A DNA stretch of 64,000 nt from NCBI RefSeq assembly GCF_016026235.1, contig NZ_CP065613.1; one strand, 5' to 3'. Positions 1 through 6,000 of the stretch are shown here, piece by piece (the first letter of the stretch is position 1; every line of letters starts with the position of its first letter). The DNA comes from Escherichia coli. Its GTDB lineage: Bacteria; Pseudomonadota; Gammaproteobacteria; Enterobacterales; Enterobacteriaceae. Made by a program: the position numbers.

Positions 1-3000
1 TGCCGCTGGAATCTTTCACCAGCACGCCAATATCGGGGTTGCCCATATCCACTGCCCTGGGGTCGTCAGCATTGGTTGCTCCCTCAAGGCGCAACGCAAC
101 CTTGATACCATCAGAGATATTGTTGCAATCGAAGCTGAGGTTAATTTCTTGCTCTGTCGCACCTTCAGGCATTTGCCCTTGCCTGTTTTTAAACGCTGAG
201 GAGGGAAATTCACCAAATGGCACATCCAGAACCGTGCCGGGTTTAATTTCGCAATCCTGGGTAATGGTGACGCGGCCCTGAATAGATACGGAAGATATGG
301 GTATTGTTCCGTAATCTTTATTTGTTTTGGAGGCATACAGTTCGGCAATTAACGTGGGGGGAATGACTGAATCGCCGATAAAGGGTTTAGTAATCAAGAA
401 AGAAAGTAATCCTCCTCCGCCCATATACGGAGTAGTGATGACTTTATTACAGCCCGTTACCTGAAGCGCCTGTTGACCTTTAAAGGGGACAAAACCATAT
501 TGCCCCGAACTTACCTGAATTTTTGTAGATACAGACAGTTCCTCAGTTAAGTAATAATACTTAAAACCACCGATATCCTTGGTTATTGTTGCTATGCCGC
601 TAACCCCTTGTATTAGAGTATCTTTTTCAGTTTTATAAGAATCAGGGCATTCACAAATTAGCGATACCTTTTGTCCATTCGACCAGTTCATTACATCCGT
701 TAAAACCGTACCTGCGACGTTTTTACTTGCATCGGGAACACCAACATCCACATCGACATTATAGTGATAAGTCGTGCCATCCGCGGGGGTACACGGCCCC
801 CAGGCATCTCCGGCAAATGCCTTACCAGAAAATCCGAATACGCATCCTAATAAAGATAATGCTATTGCCACATTCATTTCGCTCTCCTTGCTTACTGGCA
901 ATTGGCCGAAACAGGAATAATTCCGCCCTGTTTTAATTCCAGGGATAATTTATAAGGCGCCACGCATTGCTGCGACGCGTCATTACCCCATTTAATCAGT
1001 ACCCGCCCTTCCTCTGGCATCCCGCTAATATAGAGCTGCCCTTCTTCACCGACGATGCTGCTCACCTCATTTTGTTTATCGGTGATTAAGGTTGCTGTTG
1101 CCCCGAAAGGCACCGGACTGCCCGCGGAACGGAGCAGCGTCATTAATACGCGGTAACCAACACGGGTATCAAAACGCGCTCTGACAATCGCTCCACGCGT
1201 CGGCACCACTTTCTGGAATGCATTTTCAACGTCAACATCGTCACCCAACGAATCGCTACGCAGTGAGATTTCGTTTTCACGATAAGGCGTGGCGTAAGGC
1301 ACAACCGCGTTACCCATCCAGTCGACCTGCACACCGCCGTTATTCACCACGCGGGCATTGCGCGCGCCGGGTACGGAGATGAGCGTCATGGTTTCGCCTA
1401 GCGGCTGGGAAAGCGTGACGCCTTCGCTGTGAACGATCACGCCGCCGCGAACGCTGTAGTTGAGCTGCCGGTAATCTTTCCCGTAGCTATAGCCTACGTT
1501 GACATTACCGGACCCACCCTGATAGCCAACGTTAGCATTACCGCTATTACCCACGCCGTTGCTGGCGTAACCTTCCTGAACACTGTAGCTCAGGTTGCGA
1601 TCCTCAAGCAGCGTGCCGCTGACCCCAACCTGTTGATTTGTGCGACCATCCTGGTCGGTCGTCACGCGATAGTTACTCCAGGCCCGGCCCAGCGGAACGG
1701 AAATATTGAAAGACCACAAACGATCGCTATCATCCCATTCCGGGCTTTTATTCCAGCTATACGCAATACTGTAACTGACCTTGCCAATACGTCCGTTATA
1801 ACCCGCCGATATCGTGTTCTGTTTACCTGCGTCGTTCCAGTAATCCTGCTGCGTTAAATTTAAATAAACAGAGCCATACGCCCCTAATTGCTGCGTCAGG
1901 TTACCCTGTATTTCGCTGCGCTTGTGATAACGGTTATAGTCGCTGTCGGCATCACTGCGCACATCGGTGGCTTCCTGGAAGGTATAGAAACCGCTGGTAG
2001 AGTATCGATAGCCCGCGAGGCGGAAATCGGTGCCGCTTTCGAAGCTCTTGGAATATAAGAAACGATAAGATTGTCCCTGGCTATCGCGATCGTTATTCAG
2101 TTCGCTTTTCGCCTGCGTAACATCGATGGAAATCGCCCCGATATAACCAAAGTTCTTCCCTATACCTAACGCAAACGCATTGTAATTATTAGAGATTAAT
2201 GCACCGCCGTAGGCGGTCATCCCCCACGGTAAACCATAAATCAGATCAAGCTGCCCGAAACGCGGCGAGCCGCTGTCATAATTCCCGGCCTGATATTCAC
2301 CCGCGGCAAAGCTATATTTGAGATGGCCTTCACGCTGGAAAATAGGCACCGATGAGAACGGTTGAATAAAGCGTTGTTCGCTGCCATCCGCTTCTTTAAT
2401 AATGACCGTGAGGTCACCGCTGTTTGCGGTAGGGTAAAGATCGTTTATTTCAAAGGCTCCGGGCTGCACATAGGTGCGATAAATAACGTAGCCGTTTTGT
2501 TCAACACTGACTTCAGCATTACTTTTGGCGATCCCACGAACGATGGGCGCAAAGCCTCGCTGGCTGTCGGGCAGCATCTCTTCATCGGAGGCTAACATCG
2601 CGCCACGCATCTGAACGCTGTCAAAAATATCCCCCGCGGTCGCCGTATCTCCCATTGTTAATTGCGCTTTGAAAGGCACGATGGCACGGCTAAGCGACGT
2701 ACCGATATTATCCCACTGCGCTTTGCAGCCGGAATGGCTCCAGGTACTGTAATTACGTAACCGCCACGCGCCAAGGTTCAGGCCGCTGCGTAAGTTGAGG
2801 TAGTAGCTGTCGCTCTTTAGCGTATCGTTGCCATCATCATGATGAACGGTGCCATTATCATCGACATAACTGCTGGAAGAACCCGAGGAGTCATATTCAC
2901 TGTTGCTCCCGCTAAAACTGTAATCCAGCAATAATGCCGGGATACCTTCGTCCCATAAAGATTCCGGCACCGTGCCGCGCGCCACCTGGTGCATCGCAGC

Positions 3001-6000
3001 CTGAGGGAAACTTAATACCAGCTTTTGTTCACTGAAGTCGAAATGGCTTGAGGCCTGGGGAATGATTTCGTCAAACGGCACGCAGGCTTCGGCAGGCACC
3101 AGATTGAGGGCCGGAAAGCTTTCAACGCGCACGCCCATCTCTGCCAGTTGCGTCCGGCTAAGGCAAGGCACAAGGGATTCCCCCATCGCTTTGCGCTGTG
3201 CTTCTGTGGCCTCTTTAAATTCCAGTGTGCGGGTTTCCATTCTCTGTTCATTGACGTAAACAGAGACACGATAGATGCCGGGTAACTGCTGTTCCTGGCC
3301 TTTTTCGAACATCGTTAAATCGACATGCTGGCCCACACCCTGAACGTCCTCCAGGAATTTGGGGTTAAACTTTCCGGCATGTGCAGAAAACGTGCTGGCA
3401 ACAGCAACCGCCACCACAGAGATAGAAAAGGAAGAAAAAGTACGTGAAACGGTCTTCCGTGACATTGAGCAATTTCTCCTGAAAAGGTATTAATCAATCA
3501 ACATTTTTAGTCATCATTTCCGCTGACGATCCAAAGTCATTGATAGTGTTATATTTAATCTTCGAAACGCTACCTGCCCCAGCGGGTAATGTAATATTTA
3601 ATGACCCTTTTGCGGGTACCATGCCGGCTTTTTCAATTTCTTTGTCATTCGCAAAAAATTGATTAAAGGTAATATTAAAAACGGTGGGGTTATCGACACG
3701 GATCTGATTACCGCTACGCGTAAATCGCAGTTCGTTTGGCGCGGTTTTTACATCACCCTGTAACCCTGCCGGGCGATAAAACAGTTTGATGCGGGTGCGA
3801 ACAGCAATCTGTAATACATTTTTGTTTTCGCTGTCGTCACTTTTAGACGGAATGGCTTTCACATTAACCCAGTAGACCGATTCGCGATCCTGCGGCAGGC
3901 CAGGGGTGGTATTTACAATACGCAATATATTGTTTTTTCCAGGATCGAGCCTGAACAACGGCGGGGTAATTATAAACGGTGTTTTTTTGCTGCCCGCGGC
4001 ATCATCCACCCAGGACTGGATCAGAAACTCTTCCGTCTTACTTTTATTCTGTACGGTCAGCGAGGCTTCTTTCTTACTGCCATCATAAATCACACGGGTA
4101 GCACTAAGCCCAACGCCCCCCGCCAGAACTGACTGGGAGAGGAACAGAGACAGAGCCAACGCAACAAATTTACTTTTCATCATTCGATCCATGAATTTTG
4201 ACGACTAATGGCGGCAATTACGCCGCCATGGGTAAAACAGACGATTACTCGTAAGACAGGTTGAAATCGACCTGCGCATTGCCGTAACCGGTCGTTACCG
4301 TTGCCAGAGTTGAAACGTAGTTGGCGGTAAAGTAGAGAACCGTCTGGCCTTTACTCAGATCAACACTTGCTTTACCACCGTTAAGAGCGACCAGGGTGTT
4401 GCTGTTATCATAAATACCGATACCAACACCTTTCGCCGCACCGGCTTCAGTACTAACAGAAATCAGATCAGATTGATCTGCATCACCGACACCGCTAAAG
4501 CTCACATTGGCTTTTTTCATCGTAGTGGTATCGCAGTCTTCCAGTTTAATTTCGAAGGGTTTTGCCGGGGATTTATCACCAACCGCAGCAAATACAGATT
4601 TTTGTACCTGACCCAACACAACTTCCTGATTCTGAGAGTCAACGGACAGTACGCAAGGTGAATCCACGATCTCGCCTGTAAATTTAACCGTGCCGTCACC
4701 AGACTCTGCTGCGAATACAGTGCCAGAAGTTAACGCCAGTGCGGTTAAGGCAAAAACGACCTTTTTCATGAAAAACTCCATTTAAAAAATTACATTAAAA
4801 AGAAAATCTTGATGTATCAAAATCGACAACTTTGAAGGAAGGATTATACAATTAAATACGAATAATAAAATTATACGAATAATATATTAATAGCACATCC
4901 AATTTTAAATCTTAAAAAAAATCATTGCGTTACATTTTTACATAAAAAGCTATCGTTTATTTTTAGGAATAAATAAATATAAAATATCAATTAAACAAAA
5001 CAAAAACATTCACCACACAAATAATAAGATAAAATATTTTCATTTTTATTCTTTAAAATGTAATAAAAAAGGAGGATTTCCTCTGAGGGATCCCCAGAAA
5101 ATTTAGTAAACCATTATCATATTGGTATACCGTTGCTGTAGAACTTTCAGCCCTGCGTCAAGTGACAGTGTGTTTAGTATGAGTGGAGAATGTCGAATCA
5201 CATTCTCCGCCAGTTTTAATAACGAGATGACTCGCCTGTGCTTCACTGTATTTGCCTGATATTTATGATGTATCCCTTTGTTTTCCAGGCTGAAACCGCT
5301 TAACCACATAATGATACTGGCTAATGTTGCGATCAGACTCAATACCGTGACCCGCCCGGATGAATGACTGGCACCAAACCGTAGTCCAAATCCCCAGCGA
5401 GGATTTTTTTCATCCCTGAAATTTTGCTCAATTTGCATTCTACGGCTGTATAATTTCATTACCTGTTTTGGCGAGAACTCAGTACTGTTTGTGAAAATAA
5501 ACCATGGTGATTTCCCGGCAGTACGAGCTTTAGCCGTCACCGATGGTCTGGTTGCTCTTTCCTTCGAGCGTTTAAATCTACGACCTTTAGGCTTACTTTT
5601 ATAAAGATAAAAATGCCCTTCATGTTGTGCATTTTTATCTCGACCCAGCAGGCCTTCACCTAAATAAATTGCTGTCGTTGATGCTTTTGTGCCTGAGTCC
5701 GACACCTTTTCCCAGCCATTACCAACATTGTAATAATGATTGCCCAGTACCCGGCAAATATAGGTCCAGCCACGGGAGCGGAGCTGTTGGAACCATCGCC
5801 CCTGAAAACCGGCATCTGTAATAACAATGACATCAGTCCCGGGGGAAAAGCACTCAGCAAGCGATTCCAGAAAACGCTCATGTACATCTGCATTCGCTGT
5901 CTGTGATGATGGAACGACACAACTCATCAACGGTAAAGAACGCCCGTCACATGCCAGGCTTGCCCGCAAAAGCTGAAAACGAGAGGCATGATAAGCACTC

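What the first reader, a model, noticed from the sequence alone, without database searches (positions are those of the whole stretch)
1..5082. Intact long-polar-fimbriae-type chaperone-usher operon with an IS inserted ~310 bp upstream of the major subunit gene
The fimbrial genes (major subunit, chaperone, 857-aa usher, adhesin/minor subunit) occupy the yhjX-side slot where lpf operons are found in pathogenic E. coli and which is empty in K-12. The IS10-like copy 1 sits at the distal edge of the AT-rich regulatory region with its transposase gene reading toward the operon, so it could alter silencing or provide read-through transcription.
Basis: partly seen in the sequence, partly recalled or inferred. 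Interest (0 to 1): 0.45.

Follow-up and report, generated by a model that had tools for sequence, protein, structure and literature searches.

The report
Ordinary lpf1 fimbrial operon, ISEc60 upstream
This is the well-known long polar fimbriae (lpf1) operon of E. coli at its usual chromosomal site, and a common type of mobile element has landed in the terminator of the neighbouring gene without touching the fimbrial control region, so the finding is real but ordinary.

Summary
"Intact" is not shown, because the window cuts lpfD at codon 292 of 351 and lpfE lies outside it. LpfA differs by one residue from the O157:H7 protein (lpfA1-3 type). The 343-344 bp yhjX-lpfA1 spacer is 334/344 identical to O157:H7, and the slot is empty in K-12.

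The mobile element is ISEc60: 1,294 bp, IS4 family, IS10 subgroup, with only 36% protein identity to IS10. It sits at 6376..5083, flanked by a 10-bp duplication (AGGAAATCCT), 41 bp after the yhjX stop and 313 bp before the lpfA1 start. A 99.9%-identical IS-free strain shows that the target was the loop of the yhjX terminator hairpin. Ten ISEc60 insertions at eight sites all duplicate RGG-N4-CCY or a near match, usually in a GC-rich hairpin, so target preference explains the position.

All 313 bp of AT-rich lpf control DNA stay attached to lpfA1, and no convincing outward promoter was found. The one concrete change is loss of the yhjX terminator, which leaves read-through towards lpf possible but untested. 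The same IS-lpf junction is already in RefSeq (FDAARGOS_943). Interest is low.

The parts
1..877 (-). lpfD (tip or minor fimbrial subunit), 5' part only: 292 open codons of 351, cut by the window edge
   Evidence: Translation is open. The best NCBIfam hit is LpfD NF011753, at 256.7 bits against a cutoff of 412. Pfam Fimbrial domain at residues 198-292. It is 100% identical to the first 876 nt of the intact 351-aa gene of FDAARGOS_943 and 87.7% aa identical to O157:H7.
892..3465 (-). lpfC outer-membrane usher, 857 aa, uninterrupted
   Evidence: Pfam PapC_N, Usher and PapC_C. NCBIfam LpfC NF011754 at 1716 bits against a cutoff of 1271. No internal stop here, whereas the O157:H7 copy has one.
3494..4180 (-). 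lpfB periplasmic chaperone, 228 aa
   Evidence: Pfam PapD_N and PapD_C. NCBIfam LpfB NF011755 at 437 bits against a cutoff of 360.
4245..4769 (-). lpfA1 major subunit, 174 aa, O157:H7-type allele (lpfA1-3 group)
   Evidence: Pfam Fimbrial. NCBIfam LpfA NF011756 at 340 bits against a cutoff of 221. It is 97.0% nt identical to O157:H7 with one aa difference. The lpfA1-3 primers match at 4341..4359 and 4566..4584, giving the expected 244 bp. The lpfA1-1 primers do not match.
4770..5072 (-). AT-rich lpf1 regulatory spacer retained next to lpfA1. It contains promoter-like hexamers at 4909..4862, a T8 tract at 4914..4921 and a window-specific SNP at 4895
   Evidence: The spacer is 19.5% GC, and the full spacer is 334/344 identical to O157:H7. 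It differs from IS-free EC2641 only at 4895. Promoter-like sites are the same with and without the IS.
5073..5082 (.). Target-site duplication AGGAAATCCT, lpfA-side copy, followed by the orphaned T-run of the yhjX terminator
5083..6376 (-). ISEc60 copy 1 (IS4 family, IS10 subgroup), 1,294 bp. Transposase gene at 6293..5103 (396 aa). Ends are CTGAGGAATCCCC and, on the reverse complement, CTGAGGGATCCCC
   Evidence: It is 100% identical over 1,294 bp to copies annotated ISEc60 in other genomes. Pfam DDE_Tnp_1. NCBIfam IS4 family NF033591 at 360.5 bits. 36% aa identity to IS10A and 51.6% to ISSfl1. Identical to window copy 2.
6377..6386 (.). Target-site duplication AGGAAATCCT, yhjX-side copy
6418..7620 (-). 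yhjX (MFS transporter), whose terminator hairpin was split by the IS. Same orientation as the IS transposase gene and lpf
   Evidence: Pfam MFS_1. Annotated yhjX in relatives. The terminator is present in the IS-free relative and absent at both junctions here.
59029..60322 (-). ISEc60 copy 2, in direct orientation, with the 10-bp duplication GGGGAGTCCC, downstream of yibL

Best explanation
The region is the lpf1 (O157:H7 O-island-141 type) long polar fimbriae operon lpfA1-lpfB-lpfC-lpfD(-lpfE). It is a chaperone-usher system inserted between yhjX and eptB, and here it carries an O157:H7-like major subunit and an uninterrupted usher. A 1,294-bp ISEc60 element (IS4 family, IS10 subgroup) transposed by a simple cut-and-paste event into the loop of the intrinsic terminator hairpin of yhjX. 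That point is 41 bp after the yhjX stop codon and 313 bp before the lpfA1 start codon, and the insertion duplicated 10 bp.

The IS is at that spot because ISEc60 prefers short GC-rich palindromes of the form RGG-N4-CCY. The terminator is the only such site in the 19.5%-GC spacer. The position therefore does not need selection for an effect on lpf.

The whole AT-rich control region stays joined to lpfA1. The operon is therefore most likely still governed by its native promoter and by H-NS-type silencing; this step is inferred. The shown consequences of the IS are two: loss of the yhjX terminator, and provision of a recombination substrate, which in a sister genome has inverted about 256 kb and moved lpf away from yhjX.
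For: Identity:
- Pfam and NCBIfam models for LpfA, LpfB and LpfC are all above their curated cutoffs.
- lpfA1 is 97.0% nt identical to O157:H7 with one aa difference, and the regulatory spacer is 334/344 identical.
- The lpfA1-3 primers give the expected 244-bp product in silico.
- K-12 has eptB next to yhjX with nothing between them.

Insertion:
- Alignment with IS-free strain EC2641 (99.9% identical) shows the empty site GAAAGGGGGAGGAAATCCTCCTTTTTT and the duplicated AGGAAATCCT.
- The empty site folds as a 10-pair hairpin followed by a U-run, and the terminator scan calls it.
- Neither junction in the window is called as a terminator.

Target preference:
- Ten insertions at eight sites all have 10-11 bp duplications. 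Nine fit RGG-N4-CCY strictly (mostly GGG-N4-CCC) and one is a near match.
- Most are centred on GC-rich hairpins, several of them flanked by T or A runs.
- The motif occurs exactly once in the 344-bp spacer.

Regulatory DNA preserved:
- There is one SNP in 313 bp against the IS-free relative.
- The same promoter-like hexamers are present in both.

Recombination:
- FDAARGOS_943 has slyX-ISEc60-lpfA1 and slyD-ISEc60-yhjX, with the matching half-sites.

H-NS and LEE-encoded regulators are reported to control lpf in O157:H7 (PMC5357955).
Against: No expression data exist, so 'little effect on lpf' is an inference from position only.

IS insertions several hundred bp upstream of H-NS-silenced operons such as bgl and flhDC are known, from the general literature and not checked here, to activate them.

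yhjX, the transposase gene and lpf all point the same way. With the terminator gone, no good intrinsic terminator lies between them, so read-through cannot be excluded.

The mapped promoters and the H-NS and Ler sites of lpf1 could not be read, because the primary papers were not held. The statement that all regulatory sites lie within the retained 313 bp is therefore unverified.

The window lacks the lpfD 3' end and lpfE.
Confidence: 0.78

Rival explanations
1. Read-through coupling. By destroying the yhjX terminator, the IS lets transcripts from the yhjX promoter run through the co-oriented transposase gene and the 313-bp spacer into lpfA1BCDE. By general knowledge, that promoter is pyruvate-inducible through YpdA/YpdB. 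The result would be expression of lpf, or counter-silencing of lpf, under yhjX-inducing conditions.
For: All three units are on the minus strand. The terminator is strong in the IS-free relative and lost at both junctions. Between 6418 and 4769 the minus strand has only weak 5-pair terminator-like sites with poor T tails.
Against: Transcripts would need to cross 1.6 kb that includes a probably poorly translated transposase gene and a 19.5%-GC, presumably H-NS-bound tract. Rho-dependent termination is expected there; this is an inference. There are no RNA data. In the sister genome FDAARGOS_943, the IS-lpf unit has been separated from yhjX without apparent loss of the lpf genes, which argues that the linkage is not maintained.
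Confidence: 0.1
2. The IS alters silencing or supplies its own promoter. Either the ISEc60 end changes H-NS filament nucleation or DNA geometry at the edge of the AT-rich tract, or an outward or read-through promoter in the IS drives lpf.
For: The transposase gene reads towards lpfA1. There is one weak promoter-like match (TCTACA-18-GATAAT, 9/12) at 5142..5113, pointing towards lpfA1. There is precedent in IS activation of bgl and flhDC (general knowledge).
Against: The insertion is outside the AT-rich tract, and none of that DNA is removed or split. The promoter-like match is at the tool's minimum threshold. The IS-lpfA junction itself contains no -35/-10 hybrid. Transposase promoters of IS10-type elements are weak by general knowledge. 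The position is fully accounted for by target preference.
Confidence: 0.07
3. The operon is not functional at all: it is a decaying locus, and the IS is one more sign of decay.
For: lpf1 loci of this type are often damaged elsewhere. Examples are an lpfC internal stop in O157:H7, lpfB::IS600 in O145:H28, lpfD::ISEc43/IS421 in O169:H41 and an lpfD frameshift in EC2641. The lineage is IS-rich, with at least 38 ISEc60 places in FDAARGOS_943.
Against: In the window lpfA1, lpfB and lpfC are full length, and lpfD is open for all 292 visible codons. The sister genome has intact lpfD and lpfE.
Confidence: 0.05

Closest known systems
lpf1 operon of EHEC O157:H7 (O-island 141, lpfABCC'DE)
   Same: It has the same chromosomal slot between yhjX and eptB and the same gene order. 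lpfA1 is 97.0% nt identical with one aa difference, LpfB is 95.6% and LpfC 98.3% aa identical, and the regulatory spacer is 334/344 identical.
   Different: The usher is uninterrupted here, whereas O157:H7 has an internal stop. LpfD is clearly more divergent at 87.7% aa. ISEc60 lies at the yhjX end of the spacer. The poly-T tract is T8 rather than T7.
E. coli FDAARGOS_943 (NZ_CP065615.1) lpf locus
   Same: It has an identical ISEc60-lpfA1 junction and is 99.9% identical over window 1..6380, with intact lpfD and lpfE.
   Different: The other side of the IS is slyX instead of yhjX, because of an inversion of about 256 kb between two ISEc60 copies. Its poly-T tract is T6 rather than T8, and it lacks the SNP at 4895.
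IS10 / Tn10 (IS4 family, IS10 subgroup)
   Same: It has a single DDE transposase ORF, a length within 1,200-1,350 bp, 5'-CT ends, and a symmetric target preference (PMC2266710 Table 1). From memory, the end sequences resemble the IS10 ends (CTGAxGAATCCCC and CTGAGxGATCCCC).
   Different: Protein identity is only 36%. The duplication is 10 bp in all ten insertions, not the 9 bp typical of the subgroup. The target motif is RGG-N4-CCY rather than IS10's NGCTNAGCN (the latter from memory).
IS activation of H-NS-silenced operons (bgl, flhDC)
   Same: An IS lies upstream of an AT-rich, H-NS-controlled operon.
   Different: In those cases the IS interrupts or displaces the silencer region (general knowledge). 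Here the IS is at the outer edge, in a GC-rich terminator, and leaves the whole AT-rich tract intact. No activation is shown.
IS231A target preference (GGG-N5-CCC, recalled from Hallet et al. 1994; PMC2266710 only confirms that IS231 shows insertion specificity)
   Same: Both are IS4-family elements that choose a short GC-ended palindrome and duplicate about one helical turn.
   Different: They belong to different subgroups (IS231 has CAT ends and 10-12 bp repeats). The ISEc60 spacing is N4, and its sites are mostly terminator hairpins.

Membership tests
Long polar fimbriae (Lpf) operon, lpf1 type | Major subunit is LpfA | tested here: met
   NCBIfam equivalog NF011756 at 340 bits against a cutoff of 221, full length 1-174. 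Relatives are annotated lpfA1.
Long polar fimbriae (Lpf) operon, lpf1 type | Chaperone LpfB and usher LpfC | tested here: met
   NF011755 at 437 bits against 360, and NF011754 at 1716 bits against 1271. Pfam PapD and Usher domains.
Long polar fimbriae (Lpf) operon, lpf1 type | LpfD tip subunit | tested here: inconclusive
   The best hit is LpfD NF011753, but at 256.7 bits it is below the cutoff of 412. Only 292 of 351 residues are in the window. NCBI calls the full-length relative just 'fimbrial protein'.
Long polar fimbriae (Lpf) operon, lpf1 type | LpfE present, making the five-gene operon complete | not testable with these tools
   lpfE lies beyond the window start. It is present and intact in FDAARGOS_943 and EC2641.
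Long polar fimbriae (Lpf) operon, lpf1 type | Chromosomal site between yhjX and eptB (yhjW), empty in K-12 | tested here: met
   The yhjX side is seen in the window. The eptB side is seen in relatives. K-12 is empty. The island border falls in the last codons of yhjX.
lpfA1 allele 3 (O157:H7 / EHEC1 type) | Amplifies with lpfA1-3 primers and is near-identical to the EDL933-type gene | tested here: met
   The reverse primer matches exactly and the forward primer has one mismatch. The product 4341..4584 is 244 bp, as published. It is 97.0% nt identical to O157:H7, against 82.7% and about 73% for the other allele groups. The paper that defines the alleles was not readable.
Long polar fimbriae (Lpf) operon, lpf1 type | Fimbriae are actually made and mediate adhesion | not testable with these tools
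   This needs immunoblot, electron microscopy or adhesion assays.
IS4 family, IS10 subgroup | Single DDE transposase ORF of IS4 type | tested here: met
   Pfam DDE_Tnp_1. NCBIfam NF033591 at 360.5 bits against a cutoff of 152.
IS4 family, IS10 subgroup | Length 1,200-1,350 bp and 5'-CT ends (PMC2266710 Table 1) | tested here: met
   The element is 1,294 bp, and both ends begin CTGAGG.
IS4 family, IS10 subgroup | 9-bp direct repeat | tested here: not met
   The repeats are 10 bp (11 in two cases) in all ten insertions. The subgroup value of 9 bp is.
IS10 itself | Transposase near-identical to IS10 | tested here: not met
   36% identity to IS10A and ISVsa5 over 93% of the protein. The element is 100% identical to copies annotated ISEc60.
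IS-mediated activation of a silenced operon | IS interrupts the silencer or regulatory tract, or brings an outward promoter | tested here: not met
   The AT-rich tract is left whole. There is only a threshold-level 9/12 promoter-like match in the IS end.
IS-mediated activation of a silenced operon | Raised expression relative to an IS-free strain | not testable with these tools
   This needs RT-qPCR or RNA-seq.

The most novel reading that the evidence does not exclude
ISEc60 is a terminator-seeking element. By inserting into the loops of intrinsic terminator hairpins it abolishes termination. In this strain that would fuse the yhjX transcription unit, through the co-oriented transposase gene, to the normally H-NS-silenced lpf1 adhesin operon. 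Long polar fimbriae would then be expressed in response to the signal that induces yhjX (pyruvate, by general knowledge).
Probability: 0.08. Interest if true: 0.4.

Novelty: already known. Interest (0 to 1): 0.12.

Why it matters
Lpf is an established adhesin and typing marker of pathogenic E. coli, so correctly calling the allele and its state has routine value. Here it is O157:H7-type lpfA1 with an uninterrupted usher.

The IS next to it changes nothing demonstrable for lpf. The only points of wider use are two small ones:
- ISEc60 appears to target terminator-like hairpins, which would make it a systematic remover of terminators.
- ISEc60 drives large inversions in this IS-rich lineage.

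If read-through from yhjX into lpf were shown, it would be a tidy example of IS-mediated rewiring of an adhesin. That is a modest advance rather than a new principle.

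Tried and rejected
(1) I tried to read the primary papers on lpfA allele typing and lpf1 regulation: Torres 2009 (PMC2725649), Galli 2010 (PMC2905465), Torres 2007 (PMC1952049), Torres 2008 (PMC2573367), Rojas-Lopez 2011 (PMC3067649) and the EHEC adhesins review (PMC4307604). None is held. The mapped promoters and the H-NS and Ler sites therefore could not be placed on the sequence. Allele typing relied on the primers reprinted in PMC3417533 and on direct comparison with O157:H7.

(2) I looked for an outward or hybrid promoter at the lpfA-side IS end and for a pOUT-like promoter at the other end. 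There was only one 9/12 match and nothing at the junction, so this was rejected as evidence.

(3) I tested whether a terminator survives at either IS junction. It does not: the folds are no better than shuffles, with z-scores of 0.10 and -0.25, and neither junction is called by the scan.

(4) I considered that the element is IS10 proper. This was rejected at 36% protein identity.

(5) I considered that the major subunit belongs to another fimbrial family. This was rejected: FimA, FimI, Bcf and the others all score far below their cutoffs.

(6) I looked at a plasmid of FDAARGOS_943 to name the pathotype. It is IS-rich, with an F4-like fimbrial cluster and an NEL E3-ligase pseudogene. This was inconclusive and I dropped it.

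(7) The larger repeats in the window (D3 and D4) are ordinary paralogous HlyD-family adaptor genes.

Full report
**What is in the sequence**

On the minus strand the window reads yhjY, then yhjX (7620..6418), then a 1,294-bp insertion sequence (6376..5083), then a 313-bp spacer of 19.5% GC. After the spacer come four fimbrial genes:
- a 174-aa major subunit (4769..4245);
- a 228-aa chaperone (4180..3494);
- an 857-aa usher (3465..892);
- a fourth gene that starts at 877 and is still open when the window ends at position 1.

Pfam finds Fimbrial, PapD_N/PapD_C and PapC_N/Usher/PapC_C domains in the first three, and a Fimbrial domain in the fourth.

'Intact' is not established. Near-identical genomes show that the fourth gene (lpfD) is 351 codons long, of which only 292 are in the window. 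A fifth gene, lpfE, lies entirely outside it.

**Identity of the operon**

NCBI's curated models place three proteins as LpfA (340 bits, cutoff 221), LpfB (437 bits, cutoff 360) and LpfC (1716 bits, cutoff 1271). All other fimbrial families fall far below their cutoffs. The partial fourth protein hits LpfD best but scores below its cutoff.

Among 5,426 complete E. coli genomes, 1,198 carry a detectable lpfA. Identity to the window gene falls into three groups: about 96-100% (O157:H7 at 97.0%, O145:H28 at 96.2%), 82.7%, and about 72-73% (O104:H4, W, LF82 types). Against an O157:H7 genome, identities are as follows:

| Feature | Identity to O157:H7 |
|---|---|
| LpfA | 1 aa difference |
| LpfB | 95.6% aa |
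| LpfC | 98.3% aa |
| LpfD (partial) | 87.7% aa |
| yhjX-lpfA1 spacer | 334/344 nt |

The published lpfA1-3 primers match the window (one exactly, one with a single mismatch) and predict the published 244-bp amplicon. The lpfA1-1 primers do not match. The allele is therefore of the lpfA1-3 (EHEC1) group.

K-12 has eptB directly beside yhjX. The homology break with K-12 falls in the last codons of yhjX, so the yhjX stop codon and terminator belong to the island.

The usher is uninterrupted here, whereas the O157:H7 copy has an internal stop. Other lineages carry damaged lpf1 loci:
- lpfB::IS600 in O145:H28;
- lpfD::ISEc43/IS421 in O169:H41;
- an lpfD frameshift in EC2641.

**Identity of the IS**

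The element is 100% identical over its full 1,294 bp to copies annotated ISEc60 (IS4-like) in a handful of genomes. Only 14 of 5,426 genomes hold a place covering at least 80% of the element, and FDAARGOS_943 has at least 38 places. The second copy in the window (59029..60322) is 100% identical to the first.

The transposase has a DDE_Tnp_1 domain and matches the IS4-family model. It is 36% identical to the IS10A transposase and 51.6% to ISSfl1. Its size and CT ends fit the IS10 subgroup as tabulated in PMC2266710, but its direct repeats are 10 bp rather than 9. 'IS10-like' is acceptable only in this loose sense.

**Where and why it inserted**

Strain EC2641 is 99.9% identical and lacks the IS. 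The alignment gives the empty site ...GAAAGGGGGAGGAAATCCTCCTTTTTTATTA..., with AGGAAATCCT duplicated on both sides of the IS in the window. The empty site folds into a 10-pair hairpin followed by a U-run, and the terminator scan calls it. It is the yhjX terminator, and the insertion point is 41 bp after the yhjX stop.

In the window neither junction is called as a terminator. The local folds are no better than shuffled sequence.

I reconstructed the target of ten ISEc60 insertions:
- the two copies in the window;
- the slyX/slyD site of FDAARGOS_943;
- six insertions in other genomes and plasmids;
- an adjacent tandem insertion on one of those plasmids, which has a near-match site.

All have 10-11 bp duplications. 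Nine fit RGG-N4-CCY strictly, mostly as GGG-N4-CCC. Most are centred on a GC-rich hairpin such as GCGGGG-N3-CCCCGC, and several have flanking T or A runs. The motif occurs once in the 344-bp spacer, at the terminator. Target preference is therefore sufficient to explain why the IS sits 'at the distal edge of the AT-rich region'.

**Consequences for lpf**

The retained 313 bp differ from the IS-free relative at a single base, 4895. The same cluster of promoter-like hexamers (4909..4862, about 90-140 bp before the ATG) is found with and without the IS. The IS end facing lpfA offers only one threshold-level promoter-like match (9/12), and there is no hybrid promoter at the junction.

H-NS and LEE-encoded regulators are reported to control lpf in O157:H7 (PMC5357955). 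The papers that map the binding sites and promoters were not available. I therefore infer, but cannot show, that the native control elements all lie in the retained DNA.

On this evidence the most likely effect on lpf is none or slight. The one concrete change is that yhjX has lost its terminator. yhjX, the transposase gene and lpf are co-oriented, with no good intrinsic terminator between them. Read-through towards lpf is therefore possible. I rate it unlikely to reach lpfA1, because transcripts would have to cross 1.6 kb of probably poorly translated, partly H-NS-bound DNA; this is an inference.

**Relatives and history**

No complete genome in the collection has the window's exact yhjX-IS-lpf arrangement; the best coverage is 83%. 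FDAARGOS_943 shares the IS-lpfA1 junction and is 99.9% identical over positions 1..6380. There, however, the IS is flanked by slyX, while yhjX sits about 256 kb away beside another ISEc60 next to slyD. The target half-sites are exchanged, which is the signature of an inversion between two IS copies. The window keeps both copies of the duplication and therefore shows the arrangement before the inversion.

**Verdict**

The identification as lpf is correct and can be sharpened to lpf1 with an lpfA1-3-type allele. The regulatory speculation is unsupported, and target-site preference largely accounts for the position. Everything here, including the IS-lpf junction, already exists in RefSeq. Interest is low.

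Noticed in passing
window 5073..5082, 6377..6386, 59019..59028, 60323..60332; loci L001, L003, L006-L011: ISEc60 shows a clear target preference. All ten insertions examined, at eight sites, duplicate 10-11 bp. Nine fit RGG-N4-CCY (mostly GGG-N4-CCC) and one is a near match, usually at the loop and inner stem of a GC-rich hairpin. Several of these are obvious intrinsic terminators (yhjX; the slyX/slyD bidirectional terminator; a plasmid site hit in both orientations). I found no description of this in the searchable literature; only two incidental mentions of ISEc60 turned up.
   Followed up: partly
L001 12374..12400 and L003 2680..2707 (FDAARGOS_943): An inversion of about 256 kb between two ISEc60 copies separates lpf from yhjX in the sister genome, giving slyX-IS-lpfA1 and slyD-IS-yhjX. 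The window shows the pre-inversion arrangement.
   Followed up: yes
window 4914..4921: A poly-T tract just upstream of the promoter-like hexamers of lpfA1 differs in length among close relatives: T8 here and in EC2641, T7 in O157:H7, T6 in FDAARGOS_943. It could be real slippage that changes promoter geometry, or homopolymer error in long-read assemblies.
   Followed up: no
window 4895: There is a single window-specific base change in the lpf regulatory spacer (T on the coding strand; C in EC2641, FDAARGOS_943 and O157:H7). It lies in the spacer of a predicted promoter.
   Followed up: no
window 1..877 versus L005 10393..11268: LpfD, the presumed tip adhesin, is much more divergent from O157:H7 (87.7% aa) than LpfA, LpfB or LpfC (95.6-99.4%). 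This suggests recombination or diversifying selection on the adhesin.
   Followed up: no
L005, L012, L013, L002: lpf1 loci of this allele group are frequently damaged in other lineages. O157:H7 has an lpfC internal stop, O145:H28 RM13514 has lpfB::IS600, O169:H41 has lpfD::ISEc43/IS421, and EC2641 has an lpfD frameshift. The window's A, B and C genes are all full length.
   Followed up: partly
window 60802..63952: Beyond ISEc60 copy 2 (downstream of mtlADR and yibL) lie ORFs with no Pfam or NCBIfam family. They include a 358-aa ORF (62876..63952, minus strand) built around three tandem 255-bp repeats (63042..63851, 77-79% identical).
   Followed up: no
L008 (E. coli RMDEC364 chromosome 618575..620168): Another ISEc60 copy sits in the hairpin between a CS1-type fimbrial major-subunit gene and its TcfC-like usher gene. 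This is a second case of the IS landing inside or beside a fimbrial operon through a terminator-like hairpin.
   Followed up: no
L001 45..2429 (FDAARGOS_943): dppA, two genes beyond lpfE, is split by IS1 in the sister genome. The lineage looks generally IS-rich and prone to pseudogene formation, and its 155-kb plasmid is packed with IS fragments.
   Followed up: no
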